NCBI GenBank assembly: GCA_947626765.1
Contig: CANQTQ010000003.1
Coordinates: 4,362-68,361, forward strand
Direction of reading: 5' to 3'
Length of the DNA stretch: 64,000 nucleotides
Source: an uncultured Clostridia bacterium
Lineage (GTDB): Bacteria; Bacillota; Clostridia; TANB77; CAG-508
Positions 11,699 through 21,063 of this stretch are shown here, piece by piece. The notes beneath the pieces were generated by a model. The model was given only the letters and a program-made list of their open reading frames with translations. It made no database searches and was not told the DNA's origin. Position numbers and translations under genes: made by a program. Positions within the stretch are counted from its first letter, which is position 1. Each line of letters begins with the position of its first letter.

Positions 11699-11719
11699 CG
11701 CACGAGAATCGATTCTGTG
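11699..11719. promoter_or_regulatory. Operator-like palindromic motif CGCACGAGAATCGATTCTGTG, copy 1 of 2
   Basis: Exact 21-nt repeat of the motif at 21043..21063. It contains the perfect palindrome AGAATCGATTCT and overlaps the -35/-10 window of ORF 10427..11671. Confidence 0.45.
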
Positions 11720-11760
11720 GCTTTTTATTTCTTTAATAGAGTAGTTTTACCTCTTAAAAG

Positions 11761-12330
11761 TTACTCTATTTCATCTGTTTCTTCATTTTCTACTTTATTT
11801 TGTTTATCATCTTCATAATATTTACTAAAAACCCTATAGTTCTTTTTATCAGCCTCGATAAAACACTCTAACATATCTATCTCATTTTCCATCTTTTCTT
11901 TTAGTTTATCTATATTTGAAAATGAATCTTTCGAAATAGTTGCAGTACAAATTTTTTCATATTTTTCATCAAATGACTTTTTATCATGTATGCTCAAGAC
12001 TAATATATACTGTGGTTTATCCTTTTCATGAAAGTAATCAAAAGTTAAATAACAACTTATTCCTTTTTCTCTGTCTGCTATACATGCTAAAACAATTCCT
12101 TTTCTGTTTTCTATTTCATTTCTTAAATTATACATAGAAGTATATAATTGAAATCTACTATTTCGATTTTCTTCTATTAGTTCTTGGAGAATTTCTATTT
12201 TTTCTTGCTCACAGTTCCATTGCGTTTTATATTCTTCTCTTGGTTCTGTCATTGAAGAGTCCTTTGAATAGCAATTCAAATTATATTTCGCTTCTTGACT
12301 TAATTCCTCTAAATATTCTAATCTATTCAA
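11761..12330 (-). CDS. hypothetical protein, acidic tail ..EETDEIE
   Basis: 189 aa. A TTG start overlaps the upstream stop. Confidence 0.5.
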   Translation of the reverse strand: MNRLEYLEELSQEAKYNLNCYSKDSSMTEPREEYKTQWNCEQEKIEILQELIEENRNSRFQLYTSMYNLRNEIENRKGIVLACIADREKGISCYLTFDYFHEKDKPQYILVLSIHDKKSFDEKYEKICTATISKDSFSNIDKLKEKMENEIDMLECFIEADKKNYRVFSKYYEDDKQNKVENEETDEIE

Positions 12331-13057
12331 TTTCGTCTTCCTCCTCTTCTAAATTCATATTGTTTTTTTCAGTTTCTTTTTCTATTACATCTTTAATTAC
12401 TCTTTTTGTAACACCAATTGTTGTTTTGTTAAATTCTCTTTGCCATGCACCTTCATTTCTAGACCAATGGAAACCATTATGTTTTAATTCTCTTCTAATA
12501 TTTTCGCTTGGTATATCATCAAATAATAATTGAATTCTATTTATTTCTTTATTATGAATAGCTTTTCCACCTTTAAATTCAATGTCTATAAATTCAAGCT
12601 TTTCTAATTCTTTAAGTCTTTCTATTCTCTTTTTCGTTTCTCTTATATTAGCTCCAATATTTGTTAACTCCCATCCAGAATGTTCTCTTGCTTTTATGAT
12701 TTTTCTTTCATTTTCAAGCTTTTCTAATTTTTCTTCTAGTTTTTGTATTGCATTTGGATCATCATTATAAATAGCTTTACTATTTTCTGCCGATTTAGCT
12801 CTTTGAGCATAATAATTACTTTTGTCATCCATCTCTATTGATCTTTTAATATCATTATTTGCTCTTTCTATTAGTCTTCTGTGTCTCTTTTCTGAATGAT
12901 GTCCAATTAATATCGGCTGTCCAGGTGCAATTTGCAAAATTCGATTAGCATTTGAATTACTATATTCTATTGATTTTTCTTTTGCCTTTTTAGATAGTTC
13001 GTTATACCTATCTATCCTTCTTTGTTTTCTTTCTTCGTAATCTTTTCTTCCTCCCAA
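12323..13057 (-). CDS. hypothetical ICE-associated protein, acidic tail ..EEEEDEIE
   Basis: 244 aa. It is the first gene of the co-directional cluster. Confidence 0.5.
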   Translation of the reverse strand: MGGRKDYEERKQRRIDRYNELSKKAKEKSIEYSNSNANRILQIAPGQPILIGHHSEKRHRRLIERANNDIKRSIEMDDKSNYYAQRAKSAENSKAIYNDDPNAIQKLEEKLEKLENERKIIKAREHSGWELTNIGANIRETKKRIERLKELEKLEFIDIEFKGGKAIHNKEINRIQLLFDDIPSENIRRELKHNGFHWSRNEGAWQREFNKTTIGVTKRVIKDVIEKETEKNNMNLEEEEDEIE

Positions 13058-13221
13058 AAAACATCACTTTCCTTTCATAAGATTACTGGACAAATAATCA
13101 TAATAAAAAATTTAACATATAAAAAAAGACTTAAGGAAAAGGTTTCGTGCATTCTAACTCTTTTAAAAACCTTTCACAAGTCTTTATTCAATTCTTCTTC
13201 ATTTTTTTCTACTGTTCTATT

Positions 13222-14355
13222 TCATATTTGCACTATTTTTTCCCAATTAAATCCTTCTCTACCAAAGTGACCATAATTAGTAGTTTTTGAATATATTGGT
13301 TCTTTCAATTTTAAGTAGTCAATAATTCCTTTTGGTGTCAAGTCAAATCGTTCTTTAATTATCTTAATAATTAGCCCTTCTGGAATTCTATTTGTTCCAA
13401 AACAATCTATATAAATTGATAGTGGATTTTGTATTCCTATGCCATAAGACATTTGTATTTCACATTTTCTTGCTAAACCATTTGCTACAATATTTTTTGC
13501 GATATGCCTCAACATATAAGATGCTGATCTATCCACCTTCGTTCCGTCTTTACCTGAGAAAGCACCTCCACCATGCCTTGCAATTCCTCCATAAGTATCA
13601 ACTATTATTTTTCTGCCAGTAACACCTGTGTCAGCAACAGCTCCTCCAATTACAAATCTGCCTGTTGGATTAATATAAAATTTTGTTTCTATATCAATCA
13701 TATCTGGCTCTACCACTTCTAATATAACATTTTCAATTAAATCTTTTTGCAAAGTTGCTAAATCTATATCTTTTGAATGTTGTGCTGATATTAAAATAGT
13801 ATCTATTCTAATTGGCATATCGTTAACATACTCTACTGTTACTTGCACTTTTCCATCTGATTTTAAATATGGTAGAATTCCTTTTTTTCTTACTTCTGCT
13901 AGTTTTTTTGCAAGTTTGTGTGCTACACTAATTGGATATGGCATATAATCTTCAGATTCATCTGTAGCATATCCAAACATTATTCCCTGATCTCCTGCAC
14001 CACCATCATCCACTCCAATTGCTATATCATTGCTCTGTTTTGTAATATTAATATCTATATCGCAAGTTTTATAATCCATATTTGTCTCAGCATCTGTATA
14101 GCCTACTTCTTTTAATTTTTCTCTAACTATATTTTCAATATCTATTACGGCATTTGATGTTATTTGACCTGCCACTACTACTTTATTATTTGATATAAGA
14201 GTTTCTACTGCAACTCTTGAATTTTTATCTTGTTCTAGACAAGCATCTAAAATAGAATCTGATATAAAATCACATACTTTATCAGGATGCCCCTCTGTTA
14301 CAGATTCACTTGTTAAAAAATACCTTTTGTAATTTTTCAAATTTATTTCCTCCAT
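13222..14355 (-). CDS. metK: S-adenosylmethionine synthetase
   Basis: TSESVTEGHPDK, GGGAFSGKD and the DTYGG motifs are present. A long imperfect hairpin terminator lies downstream at 13100..13200. Confidence 0.9.
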   Translation of the reverse strand: MEEINLKNYKRYFLTSESVTEGHPDKVCDFISDSILDACLEQDKNSRVAVETLISNNKVVVAGQITSNAVIDIENIVREKLKEVGYTDAETNMDYKTCDIDINITKQSNDIAIGVDDGGAGDQGIMFGYATDESEDYMPYPISVAHKLAKKLAEVRKKGILPYLKSDGKVQVTVEYVNDMPIRIDTILISAQHSKDIDLATLQKDLIENVILEVVEPDMIDIETKFYINPTGRFVIGGAVADTGVTGRKIIVDTYGGIARHGGGAFSGKDGTKVDRSASYMLRHIAKNIVANGLARKCEIQMSYGIGIQNPLSIYIDCFGTNRIPEGLIIKIIKERFDLTPKGIIDYLKLKEPIYSKTTNYGHFGREGFNWEKIVQI

Positions 14356-19418: not shown

Positions 19419-20102
19419 TCATCGATATGAAATATTTAAACCAAACATTCCACAAGAACATCTAAAAATCTCATATCCTGTTGGGCTTTCTTTTACATAG
19501 TCGTCCCAATCTTGTTTAGTTTTTTCACTATTTTCATATTTTAAATCACCTTCATGGACTATTTGGTCAAACTTAGCTTTTGCCTCATCCTCTGTGTTAA
19601 ACCATCCTTTATTCACAGTGAATGCATGTGTATGTTTTTCTTCTTTCTTAGCAGTATCATCTACTATATTACTTTCTTTTTTATTATTTTCATAATTTGA
19701 TGATTTATTTGTATCTTTTGCTTCTTCTGTTGTAGTGTTTGTTACCTGTTTGTTTGTATTGTTAGTACCAGATGTATTTTTATTTGTATTACTTTCTTTT
19801 TCTACAGTTGTATTTTTTGTAGTTTTTGATGCCTTTGATACTTCTACTATTTGATTTTCACTATCTTTAGCTTTTTCATTACTATTTACTGCTATATTCT
19901 CATAAGTATTAGCAGATGCTATAGTTTCATTTGTTTCATTTAAGTTTTCAACAATTTCTTTTTCTTCTAATATATTTTCATTTAGTGCTTCTTTTATTGT
20001 GTTTTTATTATAGTCACTTATAAAATTTAAACTTAAAATAACAACCATAGCCAATATTATGATTAATATAATTATAAAAAAATATTTTTTCATATATATC
20101 AC
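19419..20102 (-). CDS. signal-anchored T/N/K-rich low-complexity protein with a C-terminal CSCGMFG motif
   Basis: N-terminal TM helix. A hairpin terminator lies downstream at ~19345..19378. Confidence 0.45.
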   Translation of the reverse strand: MIYMKKYFFIIILIIILAMVVILSLNFISDYNKNTIKEALNENILEEKEIVENLNETNETIASANTYENIAVNSNEKAKDSENQIVEVSKASKTTKNTTVEKESNTNKNTSGTNNTNKQVTNTTTEEAKDTNKSSNYENNKKESNIVDDTAKKEEKHTHAFTVNKGWFNTEDEAKAKFDQIVHEGDLKYENSEKTKQDWDDYVKESPTGYEIFRCSCGMFGLNISYR

Positions 20103-20204
20103 CTTCCTACTTAGTAGTATAACATACTATTCTGTAGTTTGGTCGATTTTTAGAAAAATTTTTAAACTTTTTATTCTGTAACACTATGTATATCAATGTT
20201 TATA

Positions 20205-20948
20205 CTAATTATTGATTGTTTCTACTTTTGCTATTACATAATATCTTTGATTTGTTGGAGTCACATGATTATTTAAATAAGAACAAGTTGATAATTTCAC
20301 TATTTTGTTTACCTTTCCTATGCCATCCATAGCATATTTACTTGTTTTTTTATAATATTCAATAGTTGCATCAAAATCTAAGTTTTTTATATTTTTAGTT
20401 TCTTCGTCTATTCCTATTGAATATACACTAAAAACCGTGCACACATAATTTTGTTTTGGTGTATAAATCATGAATTTTTTATGTTTTTGCAAAAATTTAT
20501 AATCAAGATATTGATCTAATGTAGAAAACATACTTCCGTCTCGCATATTATGACCATATATAACTGTTTCTTTATCTTCTAAAGGTTTAGCATTTATTGT
20601 AAATATTGAACCATAATTGCTATAACTTTTTTTATATGTATGTTTTAAATAAAACAAATCTTCATCTTTTAAAATTGGATAATTAATATTAGTGTTTTCA
20701 ATCTGTATCCAACCTATAATATCTTCATTAATAGATTTTAATTTTTTCCAATCAATAGATTTTTCTTCTTTTTTCTCTGTTTCTTTTACATCTTGTACCA
20801 CTACTTCCTCTATTAGCTGTTCTACTTCTTCATTATTTTTTTTATGTTCCAAAATAGCTTTGCCTATTAGGAAAGAAGAAATTATAAATATAATTGCCAG
20901 TATCACAAATATTATTATTTTTAATATTTTTTTAATGATTGAAAACAT
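20205..20948 (-). CDS. srtB: Sortase, class B-like
   Basis: N-terminal TM helix, catalytic His in IYGHNMRDGSMFS, and TLxTC as LSTCSY. About 245 aa, as in SrtB enzymes. Confidence 0.75.
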   Translation of the reverse strand: MFSIIKKILKIIIFVILAIIFIISSFLIGKAILEHKKNNEEVEQLIEEVVVQDVKETEKKEEKSIDWKKLKSINEDIIGWIQIENTNINYPILKDEDLFYLKHTYKKSYSNYGSIFTINAKPLEDKETVIYGHNMRDGSMFSTLDQYLDYKFLQKHKKFMIYTPKQNYVCTVFSVYSIGIDEETKNIKNLDFDATIEYYKKTSKYAMDGIGKVNKIVKLSTCSYLNNHVTPTNQRYYVIAKVETINN

Positions 20949-21042
20949 TTTCTTTAAATTTCTTTGCTATTCACCTCCATCCTTTTTTCAGTATATCCCA
21001 TACATATTTTTACTTTACATTGCCTCACTCTCCTTTCTATTT

Positions 21043-21063
21043 CGCACGAGAATCGATTCTGTG
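21043..21063. promoter_or_regulatory. Operator-like palindromic motif, copy 2 of 2
   Basis: Identical 21-mer to the one at 11699..11719. It lies 25 nt past the stop of the RadC-like gene and ~115 nt upstream of the sortase start. Confidence 0.45.

What the first reader, a model, noticed from the sequence alone, without database searches (positions are those of the whole stretch)
11699..21063. Identical 21-nt palindromic motif (CGCACGAGAATCGATTCTGTG) at two sites 9.3 kb apart
Exact copies lie at 11699..11719 and 21043..21063. Each contains the perfect palindrome AGAATCGATTCT. Copy 1 overlaps the promoter window 30-55 nt upstream of ORF 10427..11671. Copy 2 lies just past the RadC-like stop and ~115 nt upstream of the sortase gene.

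There are two readings. One is a shared operator for a dimeric HTH regulator, which would couple the transfer genes to the sortase and adhesin locus. The other is a pair of direct repeats (att-like or duplication scars) bracketing the 11.7-21.0 kb segment, which contains metK, the giant adhesin and the sortase.
Basis: seen in the sequence. Interest (0 to 1): 0.55.

Follow-up and report, generated by a model that had tools for sequence, protein, structure and literature searches.

The report
Shared regulatory box before ICE establishment genes
The two identical 21-22 nt near-palindromes are copies of a strongly conserved control sequence placed just upstream of anti-restriction, SAM-synthetase, sortase and replication genes in a family of conjugative elements of gut Clostridia; they are not insertion scars, and how the box works is still open.

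Summary
The identity is 22 nt (11698-11719 and 21042-21063), with no other copy in the window at up to 3 mismatches and none in 100 shuffles.

Both copies lie in the leading region of an integrative conjugative element (ICE). All its genes are on the minus strand, and it interrupts spoIVA.

On the gene strand the box reads CACA(G/A)AATCGATTCTCGTG-CGA. In about 50 related loci it always lies in an intergenic gap, in the same orientation. It usually sits 18-30 nt before the start codon of ArdA-like, MetK, sortase or RepA_N genes.

ICEs whose ArdA-like protein is only 45-60% identical to the window's carry an identical 19-mer. Other ICE copies, all upstream of MetK, keep the 5' half and change the 3' arm in ways that keep pairing.

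The att/scar reading is rejected. Related elements have one to three boxes bracketing different gene sets, and the ICE end lies elsewhere.

Best reading (about 0.45): a box that marks a regulon and is recognised by its sequence, most simply an operator at the start of "establishment" gene units.

Live rivals are a hairpin signal on the transferred strand, a terminator on the antisense strand, and an mRNA leader site.

It is a new variant of a known kind, alongside EGeRS, CUP and Frpo.

The parts
11698..11719 (-). Box copy 1 (22 nt identical to copy 2). On the gene strand it reads CACAGAATCGATTCTCGTGCGA. It lies 28-48 nt upstream of the TTG start of the ArdA-domain gene 10427-11671.
21042..21063 (-). 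Box copy 2. It lies 25 nt after the RadC stop and 95 nt before the sortase start.
11672..11770 (-). Full 'type A' module around copy 1. Its parts are: a hairpin overlapping the stop codon of the 189-aa ORF (11735-11770; loop TTTTAAGAGGTAAAAC); an A-rich 18-nt linker; the box; CGAGAGAAT (11692-11700), which can pair with ATTCTC of the box; the Shine-Dalgarno (SD, ribosome-binding) sequence AGGAGGAG (11680-11687); and the TTG start at 11671.
21023..21037 (-). SD-like block GAAAGGAGAGTGAGG followed by ATG-TAA, downstream of copy 2. By eye this is a relic of the start of an ArdA-like gene. The real sortase SD is at 20972-20982.
   Evidence: sequence reading
11720..11734 (+). T-rich tract (GCTTTTTATTTCTTT) directly after the box hairpin on the + strand. 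This gives the shape of an intrinsic terminator on the strand antisense to the genes.
   Evidence: the same box is called terminator-like in L138
21064..21077 (+). T-rich tract (CCATTTTTATATTT) after copy 2 on the + strand.
10427..11671 (-). ArdA-domain protein (414 aa), the first gene of the unit downstream of copy 1 (followed by the 199-aa and 182-aa ORFs).
20205..20948 (-). Sortase, the first gene downstream of copy 2 (followed by the 227-aa membrane ORF and terminator 19362-19390).
9232..9249 (-). Terminator-like hairpin that closes the copy-1 unit, just before the oriT-like region.
9100..9230 (.). oriT-like cluster of inverted repeats (AAAAAGCCACGCTTTTT; GGGAGTGGAGTGCACTCCC; GCAAAATTGC...GCAATTTTG), upstream of the 153-aa/relaxase operon. 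It is conserved in all related ICE loci and fixes the direction of the leading region.
13121..13184 (-). Long-stem terminator after MetK, conserved across the ICE family. In relatives it is followed at once by the SD of the next ORF.
21804..22079 (+). SpoIVA C-terminal fragment. It marks the right end of the ICE, so RadC and copy 2 lie within about 0.75 kb of the element's end.

Best explanation
The motif is the core of a conserved cis-regulatory box. The box marks the 5' end of 'establishment' gene units in the leading region of a family of Clostridial ICEs, and of a small RepA_N/Mob_Pre element.

The mechanism I commit to is this. The box is read by its sequence, most simply as duplex DNA bound by a factor encoded by the element or the host (an operator). 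It lies at or just after the transcription start, so the ArdA-like, MetK, sortase/adhesin and RepA_N units are switched together. They would be held off in an established donor and expressed in a burst after entry into a recipient.

Shown here: the repeat; its position and orientation; its extreme conservation across diverged elements; its association with this gene set; and the terminators that close the downstream units.

Inferred: that a protein binds it, that it acts on duplex DNA, that it represses, and the timing of expression.
For: (1) Non-chance exact repeat.

(2) The exact window-form 19-mer occurs in only 6 relevant places among 185,579 species genomes, all in related ICEs of gut Clostridia metagenome-assembled genomes (MAGs). 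A degenerate scan of metagenomes gave about 45 AT-rich loci of the same family.

(3) The box is always intergenic and in the same orientation. It lies 18-30 nt before the start codon of ArdA-like genes (414, 370 and about 212-218 aa forms), MetK or RepA_N, or about 90-115 nt before the start where a relic leader intervenes, as for sortase and some MetK genes.

(4) Loci fetched through the ArdA-like protein, without using the motif, carry the identical 19-mer CACAAAATCGATTCTCGTG although that protein is only 45-60% identical to the window's. Five ICEs, seen in 7 loci, also keep the following CGA.

(5) All 19 positions are fixed in the ArdA-type boxes, including the 'loop', the 'bulge' and a mismatched position. 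This pattern fits recognition of the sequence, not of a bare hairpin.

(6) The MetK-type variant CCACAA-AATCGA-TTGTGG is a perfect 6-6-6 inverted repeat, as expected for a dimer site. The ArdA-type box would then be a weaker version of it.

(7) The units downstream of the two window boxes, and the MetK units of relatives, end at terminators.

(8) The mRNA strand has no conserved fold (RNAalifold -0.02 kcal/mol).

(9) There is precedent for conserved upstream sequences with operators in front of establishment operons, in p576/pLS20 (PMC6294495, PMC8708921).
Against: No regulator was identified. The unknown leading-region proteins have no DNA-binding Pfam domains. The 182-aa protein gave a confident model with no match in the PDB. 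An HTH_3 gene is present in only some relatives.

No sigma-A -35 element is conserved at 16-18 nt from the -10-like CA(A/G)AAT; scores equal the background.

The 3' arm changes in a way that preserves pairing in a different register. In the commonest form pairing is complete only on the template (+) strand through G-T/G-U pairs. Both points suggest a single-stranded hairpin.

The T tract after the hairpin on the + strand is not explained by an operator.
Confidence: 0.45

Rival explanations
1. Signal on the transferred strand. The + strand is inferred to be the transferred strand and the template of these genes. The box folds there into a short hairpin that a polymerase or primase recognises on the incoming single strand. 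This would allow immediate expression or priming of establishment genes before the complementary strand exists. It would be functionally analogous to Frpo/ssi or to the hairpin promoters of phage N4.
For: Gene orientation relative to the oriT-like region makes the + strand both the transferred strand and the template (general principle in PMC11541004). All 25 distinct box variants fold on that strand (-3.9 to -8.0 kcal/mol as RNA), whereas 6 do not fold on the mRNA strand. In the commonest form pairing is 7-8 of 8 on the template strand against 5-6 of 8 on the mRNA strand. The 5' half plus loop is fixed and the other arm only keeps pairing. The box sits directly before SD/start codons, and no sigma-A promoter is evident. 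The same box precedes repA next to the oriT of a mobilisable element.
Against: As DNA the hairpin is weak (-1 to -2.7 kcal/mol; z-score -0.5). It is far too short to recreate a duplex -35/-10 as Frpo does. No dedicated polymerase or primase gene was seen in the part of the ICE available. The identity of the transferred strand is inferred, not shown. One variant (V10) has its wobble pair on the other strand.
Confidence: 0.15
2. Antisense terminator or insulator. On the + strand the box plus its T tract is an intrinsic terminator. It stops transcription running against the establishment genes, or ends a cis-antisense RNA that covers their ribosome-binding sites.
For: On the + strand the hairpin is followed within 2 nt by T5-T7 in most contexts. 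The generic scan's only terminator-like call in L138 8100-11500 is this box on the antisense strand. G-U pairs make the fold specific to that strand as RNA (-4.9 to -8.0 against -0.3 to -4.0 kcal/mol). The ICE lies inside spoIVA, so host transcription would enter it antisense to its genes. Tn916 uses a terminator as an insulator (PMC11658703).
Against: There is no + strand gene or conserved + strand promoter upstream of the box. Terminators do not need 19-23 invariant positions. The T tract is absent or weak in the RepA_N, type D and some MetK contexts. The stems are weak compared with the element's own terminators.
Confidence: 0.12
3. mRNA leader site. The box is read on the transcript, or on the non-template strand of the transcription bubble. 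It could act as a nut/ops-like loading site for an antiterminator, as a processing/stability site, or as a translational control element. Its ATTCTC can pair with GAGAAT or SD-like sequences.
For: The leading region contains terminators that are followed at once by the next SD, with no room for a promoter. Boxes lie upstream of such terminators and in one orientation. In type A modules ATTCTC/GAGAAT pairs in 85% of cells, with U-G variants, and this is the predicted mRNA hairpin just 5' of the SD. Processive antitermination is common in Gram-positive conjugative elements (PMC8191782, PMC11658703).
Against: The mRNA strand has no consensus structure, and the box itself is unfolded there in its commonest form. 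The ATTCTC/GAGAAT partner is missing in the sortase, MetK and RepA_N contexts. No NusG-like or N-like gene was found in the sequenced part. There is no Rfam match. Known RNA antiterminators are 70-450 nt long.
Confidence: 0.15
4. Direct repeats left by insertion or duplication (att-like), bracketing a mobile 9.3-kb segment.
For: There are two identical direct copies 9.3 kb apart. Relative to L008, the sortase-adhesin genes look like an insertion between the box and MetK.
Against: Relatives have boxes around other gene sets (2.5 kb in L008), a single box (L129), or boxes before RadC or repA. The position is always promoter-proximal. The putative cargo insertion starts after the box and its relic leader, not at the box. 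The ICE end lies at about 21.8 kb.
Confidence: 0.02

Closest known systems
EGeRS2 / Reg576 operators of Bacillus plasmid p576, and EGeRS1 of pLS20 (PMC6294495, PMC8708921)
   Same: A conserved sequence is repeated immediately upstream of several establishment operons, including an anti-restriction gene. It defines a regulon in the leading part of a Gram-positive conjugative element. In p576 a repressor binds operators in the promoters, giving transient expression after transfer.
   Different: There is no sequence similarity: the p576 operator is a dual TTATCCC heptamer. No sigma-A promoter is recognisable here, and no Reg576-like gene was identified. The box is a single 19-23 nt near-palindrome, whereas EGeRS1 is 420-750 bp and GC-rich. 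The host elements here are ICEs of Clostridia.
Frpo/ssi single-strand promoters of F and ColIb-P9 leading regions (Masai and Arai 1997; PMC11541004)
   Same: They are repeated elements upstream of ardA/ssb/psiB-type genes whose template is the transferred strand, and the structure matters on that strand.
   Different: Frpo is a long imperfect hairpin that rebuilds a duplex -35/-10. Here the hairpin is 7-8 bp, weak as DNA, and carries no -35/-10.
CUP (conserved upstream) repeats of the pKM101 leading region, controlled by ArdK (Delver and Belogurov 1997; from my own knowledge, not checked here)
   Same: Repeated conserved upstream elements coordinate the expression of anti-restriction and other leading-region genes.
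   Different: CUP elements are much longer, contain strong promoters, and come from a Gram-negative IncN plasmid.
Lambda nutL/nutR and RfaH ops/JUMPStart sites
   Same: They are short, nearly identical, orientation-specific elements placed in leaders or intergenic gaps ahead of terminators, with two or more copies per element.
   Different: boxB needs an mRNA hairpin, which the commonest form of this box lacks. No N-like or NusG-paralog gene was found.
lacO-type operators at +1 to +21 and LacI/GalR-family sites (AA-N-CG-N-TT centre; from my own knowledge)
   Same: A pseudo-palindrome of about 20 bp with a central AATCGATT, located between an AT-rich stretch and the SD.
   Different: The outer TG/CA positions typical of that family are not present. 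The central CG varies in some copies (CA, TG, AA, AG). The resemblance is only formal.

Membership tests
Operator of an establishment-gene regulon (EGeRS2/Reg576 type) | The same sequence recurs upstream of several establishment operons, including an anti-restriction gene. | tested here: met
   The box precedes ArdA-like, MetK, sortase and RepA_N genes in about 50 loci.
Operator of an establishment-gene regulon (EGeRS2/Reg576 type) | The element contains or overlaps an active sigma-A promoter. | tested here: inconclusive
   A -10-like CA(A/G)AAT and an AT-rich hexamer just upstream are present. The -35 scores at 16-18 nt equal the background. No transcript data are available.
Operator of an establishment-gene regulon (EGeRS2/Reg576 type) | A cognate repressor is encoded in the regulon and binds the site. 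| not testable with these tools
   No DNA-binding domain was found in the unknown leading-region proteins. Only part of the ICE is in the window.
Frpo/ssi single-strand promoter | Lies upstream of leading-region genes whose template is the transferred strand. | tested here: met
   Gene orientation towards the oriT-like region. The identity of the transferred strand is inferred by analogy.
Frpo/ssi single-strand promoter | A long hairpin that recreates a duplex -35 and -10. | tested here: not met
   The module is at most 110 nt with hairpins of 7-15 bp. The box hairpin is -1 to -2.7 kcal/mol as DNA. There is no -35.
Intrinsic terminator (on the + strand) | A hairpin followed by a U/T tract. | tested here: met
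   T5-T7 lies within 2 nt of the stem in most contexts. The scan tool calls the box terminator-like in L138. The tract is absent in the RepA_N and type D contexts.
Intrinsic terminator (on the + strand) | Lies at the 3' end of a transcription unit on that strand. | tested here: not met
   No + strand gene lies upstream in the ICE.
att site / target-site duplication / duplication scar | The repeats coincide with the ends of a segment that is present or absent as a block. | tested here: not met
   The inter-box content differs among relatives. Single-box elements exist. The ICE end is at about 21.8 kb.
nut/boxB-type antitermination site | A conserved hairpin on the mRNA strand. | tested here: not met
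   The commonest form does not fold on the mRNA strand (-0.3 kcal/mol). The alignment consensus is -0.02 kcal/mol.
nut/ops-type antitermination site | Lies in the transcribed leader upstream of terminators, with a cognate factor gene. | tested here: inconclusive
   The position relative to terminators fits. No factor gene was found in the available sequence.
Dispersed repeat (REP/MITE-like) | Many copies scattered without positional logic. | tested here: not met
   There are 2 copies in 64 kb, none in the 40 kb of chromosome. Elsewhere the box occurs only in homologous ICE positions.
Known RNA family (Rfam) | A match to a curated covariance model. | tested here: not met
   No match at E<=1 in window 1-30000.

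The most novel reading that the evidence does not exclude
The box is a minimal hairpin signal on the template strand. It lets establishment genes of Gram-positive conjugative elements (anti-restriction, SAM synthetase, replication initiator) be transcribed or primed directly from the incoming single strand. An ICE family and a hitch-hiking RepA_N/Mob_Pre element share it. This would be a Gram-positive counterpart of Frpo built on a quite different, N4-like principle.
Probability: 0.12. Interest if true: 0.8.

Novelty: new variant of a known kind. Interest (0 to 1): 0.45.

Why it matters
If the box marks a co-regulated establishment regulon, it is a simple sequence tag for finding early-expressed anti-defence genes in uncultured gut Clostridia. 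The genes behind it include several ArdA variants, an ICE-borne MetK and families of unknown function.

It also gives a bait for isolating the factor that times their expression. And it suggests that small mobilisable elements copy the ICE's control signal.

How leading-region genes of Gram-positive elements are switched on in a new host is largely unknown outside the pLS20/p576 plasmids, so a compact, testable element is useful.

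Tried and rejected
- Known plasmid or phage relatives: none found (only chance AT-rich hits).
- Rfam: no match.
- Literature search for the motif strings: nothing.
- Sigma-A promoter with -10 = CA(A/G)AAT: the top hit in some loci, but -35 scores equal the background. Not adopted as shown.
- Conserved mRNA structure of the whole module: RNAalifold finds none. Named helices show about 78% pairing, with little covariation beyond controls.
- Regulator hunt: Pfam on all unknown leading-region ORFs and a PDB sequence search (only a weak POU-like hit, E=0.13). 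An AlphaFold model of the 182-aa protein was confident (pLDDT 90.9) but had no fold match. This was a dead end.
- Methylation-site idea (GANTC/ATCGAT with the ICE N6_N4 methyltransferase): the sites are not conserved across variants, and counts are unremarkable.
- Host-regulator consensus boxes recalled from memory (LexA, Rex, CRP/FNR, Zur, NrdR, ArgR, CcpA cre, Spo0A, SinR, sigma-54): spacing or flanks do not fit. Not tested formally.
- Shared AAAAGCCAC between the box flank and the oriT repeat: it does not co-vary between loci and was judged coincidental.
- Recombination or cassette-site idea: the junctions of rearrangements are not at the box.

Full report
**Observation.** The 21-mer CGCACGAGAATCGATTCTGTG is present exactly at 11699-11719 and 21043-21063 on the + strand. 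No third copy exists on either strand, even at 3 mismatches. None of 100 dinucleotide-preserving shuffles gave a match. The identity is in fact 22 nt (T at 11698 and 21042), after which the flanks diverge. The inner palindrome AGAATCGATTCT is unique to these two sites.

**What the region is.** Every gene from about 800 to 21,700 is on the minus strand. Pfam assigns, in the order of transcription:
- RadC (21664-21089), then box copy 2
- sortase (20948-20205), a 227-aa membrane ORF, and a terminator at 19390-19362
- a thioester/SpaA adhesin split into four ORFs (19307-14412), and a terminator at 14409-14384
- MetK (14355-13222), and a long-stem terminator at 13184-13121
- DUF3560, a 189-aa ORF, then box copy 1
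- an ArdA-domain protein (11671-10427), 199-aa and 182-aa ORFs, and a terminator at 9249-9232
- an inverted-repeat cluster, a 153-aa ORF, relaxase, coupling protein, type IV secretion genes and an N6/N4 methyltransferase

This is the leading region plus the transfer region of an ICE in a 27% GC Clostridial chromosome. A GerA operon and the ribosomal-protein/rpoA cluster follow.

The ORF at 21804-22079 (+) is the C-terminal domain of SpoIVA (E = 1e-39). The ICE therefore ends near 21.7-21.8 kb and interrupts spoIVA. The pilin-like genes at 22171-23974 lie outside the ICE.

The inverted-repeat cluster at 9100-9230 is conserved in every related ICE, just upstream of the accessory/relaxase genes. 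I take it to be oriT. By the usual geometry (relaxase enters last; principle in PMC11541004), the + strand is then the transferred strand and the template of the leading genes. This is an inference.

**The box elsewhere.** An exact scan of one genome per species, using the window-form 19-mer, gave 8 hits. Six are in related ICEs of rabbit-gut Clostridia MAGs, and two are chance hits in high-GC genomes. The contexts were RadC-box-sortase, 189aa-box-ArdA, and RadC-box-MetK.

A metagenome scan with CACARAATNNATTCTCGTG gave 119 loci. About 45 of them are AT-rich members of the same family; the rest are chance hits in unrelated DNA. Only three positions were free in that pattern, so it cannot prove invariance.

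I therefore fetched loci through the ArdA-like protein, without using the motif. These ICEs share the gene order. Their ArdA-like protein is only 45-60% identical to the window's.
- Five of them (seen in 7 loci: L130, L132, L134/L135, L136, L138) carry the identical 19-mer CACAAAATCGATTCTCGTG followed by CGA before an ArdA-like gene. L140 has CACAGAATCGATTCTTGTG.
- Four different forms were found before MetK. They keep CCACA(A/G)AATCGA but change the 3' arm...TTGTGGTG...AACGTGGTG and ...TTGTGAAG.
- Some junctions have no box (L129 before ArdA-215; L132 before MetK).
- A degenerate copy precedes RadC at the very end of the L138 ICE.
- The same box lies 18 nt before the start of a RepA_N gene in a small RepA_N + Mob_Pre element, about 27 nt from that element's end.

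No annotated plasmid or phage carries the module. No paper holds the string. Rfam has no match.

**Anatomy.** On the gene strand the consensus is CACA(G/A)AAT(C/T)(G/A)ATT(C/G)T(C/G)GTG-CGA. The window's G at position 5 is the minority form. The common form has A, which makes the palindrome worse.

Before ArdA-like genes the box sits in a module of about 100 nt. The module runs in this order:
- the stop codon of the upstream gene
- a hairpin with a conserved loop TTTTA(A/G)AGGTAAAAC
- an A-rich linker of 18 +/- 1 nt
- the box
- CGAGAGAAT
- the Shine-Dalgarno (SD, ribosome-binding) sequence
- the start codon

Window copy 1 has the full module. Copy 2 has only an AT-rich flank, the box and an SD-like block followed by ATG-TAA. 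By eye this block, like the MFR*/MFI* mini-ORFs before MetK in relatives, is a relic of the start of an ArdA-like gene left by deletions. Compared with L008 (RadC-box-MetK), the window has the sortase/adhesin genes inserted between the box leader and the MetK SD.

**Structure tests.**
- As RNA, the common form folds only on the + (template/antisense) strand: 7-8 bp with two G-U pairs, -4.9 to -8.0 kcal/mol. On the mRNA strand it gives -0.3 to -4.0 kcal/mol.
- All 25 distinct variants fold on the + strand at -3.9 kcal/mol or better, while six are essentially unfolded on the mRNA strand. Canonical pairs are 7-8 of 8 on the + strand against 5-6 of 8 on the mRNA strand.
- The MetK-type forms switch to another register (CCACAA/TTGTGG), which is perfect on both strands. 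One of them has its wobble pair on the mRNA strand, so the evidence for one strand is suggestive, not clean.
- As DNA the hairpin is weak (-1 to -2.7 kcal/mol; z-score -0.5).
- On the + strand the stem is followed by T5-T7 in most contexts. A generic scan calls the box a terminator on that strand in L138.
- The mRNA strand of the module has no consensus fold. Named helices pair in 71-85% of cells, with little covariation beyond controls.
- In type A modules the predicted mRNA hairpin is GAUUCUC/GAGAAUU, just 5' of the SD. That partner is absent in the other contexts.

**Promoter test.** A -10-like CA(A/G)AAT lies inside the box. In several unrelated contexts it gives the best sigma-A-like hit. 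However, -35 scores at the required spacing are no better than background. A promoter is therefore neither shown nor excluded.

**Weighing the readings.** Three facts must be explained together:
1. Near-total invariance of 19-23 nt across deep divergence, including positions that would be loop, bulge or mismatch.
2. A fixed position and orientation just before the ribosome-binding sites of a coherent gene set, with terminators closing the downstream units.
3. A 3' arm that changes while keeping complementarity to the fixed 5' half.

Fact 1 argues for recognition by sequence, that is by a protein or another nucleic acid, and against a plain hairpin or terminator. Fact 2 argues for control of expression and against priming or recombination. 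Fact 3, and the strand asymmetry, argue that pairing matters. They can also be read as a dimer site whose symmetric form is CCACAA-N6-TTGTGG.

I rank the readings as follows:
- a duplex operator at the start of establishment units, about 0.45
- an mRNA or bubble-strand leader site, about 0.15
- a hairpin signal on the transferred strand, about 0.15
- an antisense terminator/insulator, about 0.12
- att-like scars, about 0.02

That the box is a functional, conserved cis element for leading-region gene expression I hold at about 0.85.

**Comparison with what is known.** The closest concept is the 'establishment gene regulatory sequence' of the pLS20/p576 plasmids: conserved sequences before establishment operons, with Reg576 operators in p576 (PMC6294495, PMC8708921). 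CUP repeats of pKM101 (from memory) and Frpo/ssi of F-like plasmids (PMC11541004) are also related.

The box shares the logic but not the sequence, size or architecture of any of these. It fails the defining structural feature of Frpo and of boxB. It is best filed as a new variant of a known kind.

**Dead ends.** These are listed under Tried and rejected. The main one was the search for a regulator among the unknown leading-region proteins.

Noticed in passing
window 21089-21664, 12323-13057, 11761-12330, 10427-11671, 9831-10430, 9265-9813, 6760-7452; loci L129-L140: Nearly all leading-region proteins end in the same acidic tail ...EEEFE-COOH (variants EEEIE, EEEME, EEELE, EEEYE). These include RadC, DUF3560, DUF4313, DUF3846/DUF7659, every ArdA-like protein and many unknowns, but not MetK. 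The count is 32 of 46 in six related ICEs, against 3 loose matches of 60 among relaxase and secretion proteins. This may be a shared C-terminal signal: a translocation signal, a partner-binding motif like the SSB tail, or a degron.
   Followed up: partly
window 21804-22079 (+); L129 731-1006; L130 6174-6398; L138 6120-6332: The ICE interrupts spoIVA: a SpoIVA C-terminal fragment abuts the ICE end (Pfam E = 1e-39). Relatives sit beside a SpoIVA fragment, spoIIID, or a truncated cotJC. The family therefore seems to target sporulation genes, like the intervening elements skin and SPbeta.
   Followed up: partly
window 13121-13184 (-); the same element in L129, L130, L134, L136, L138, L140: A long-stem terminator after MetK (or after DUF4313) is conserved across the family. 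In relatives it is followed at once by the SD of a 47-48-aa membrane ORF and DUF3560, with no room for a promoter. This suggests regulated read-through (antitermination) in the leading region.
   Followed up: partly
window 9100-9230; L129, L130, L132, L134, L136, L138 upstream of the 152-162-aa gene: A conserved cluster of three inverted repeats (GCTAAAAGCCACGCTTTTAGGC; GGGAG...CTCCC; GCAAAATTGC...GCAATTTTG) lies before the accessory/relaxase operon. It is a likely oriT.
   Followed up: partly
L026 547-2589 (also L034, L042, L089, L061): A small element of about 2 kb encodes RepA_N and a Mob_Pre (MOBV) relaxase, with its own long inverted repeat between the two genes. It carries the ICE box 18 nt before repA and about 27 nt from its end. 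In L042/L089 it abuts a truncated transposase-like ORF.
   Followed up: partly
window 3040-3904, 4768-6667, 14412-19307, 22171-23974, 24172-25909, 27209-28253, 28836-30864: Many genes, both in the ICE and in the chromosome (TrbL, coupling protein, adhesin, pilin-like gene, GerA, GerAC, RNase R), are split into 2-4 overlapping ORFs. The likely cause is indel errors in the assembly rather than decay.
   Followed up: no
window 9265-10430; alignment A1: Domains of the 182-aa and 199-aa proteins are shuffled among family members. In most relatives the VAVKSGYYFEIF domain is fused to the KPKCALIGEDGNIFNLMGIASRTLK domain. The 182-aa protein gives a confident model (pLDDT 90.9) with no PDB fold match.
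   Followed up: partly
window 53999-54268: A tandem array with a 15-nt period (at least 12 registers of a 105-nt unit) lies inside the minus-strand ORF 53883-54530.
   Followed up: no
L136 612-1009: Three repeats of about 36 nt (AAAAAGYGGTGAATCCAGCCAT..AATTGGAACTT) lie upstream of a ToxN_toxin gene, at the ICE end next to a MazE-like gene. This looks like a ToxIN-type abortive-infection/toxin-antitoxin locus.
   Followed up: no
window 23999-24027 (-): The best sigma-A-like promoter match of the region (TTGACA-17-TATATT) lies just upstream of the pilin-like genes, outside the ICE.
   Followed up: no
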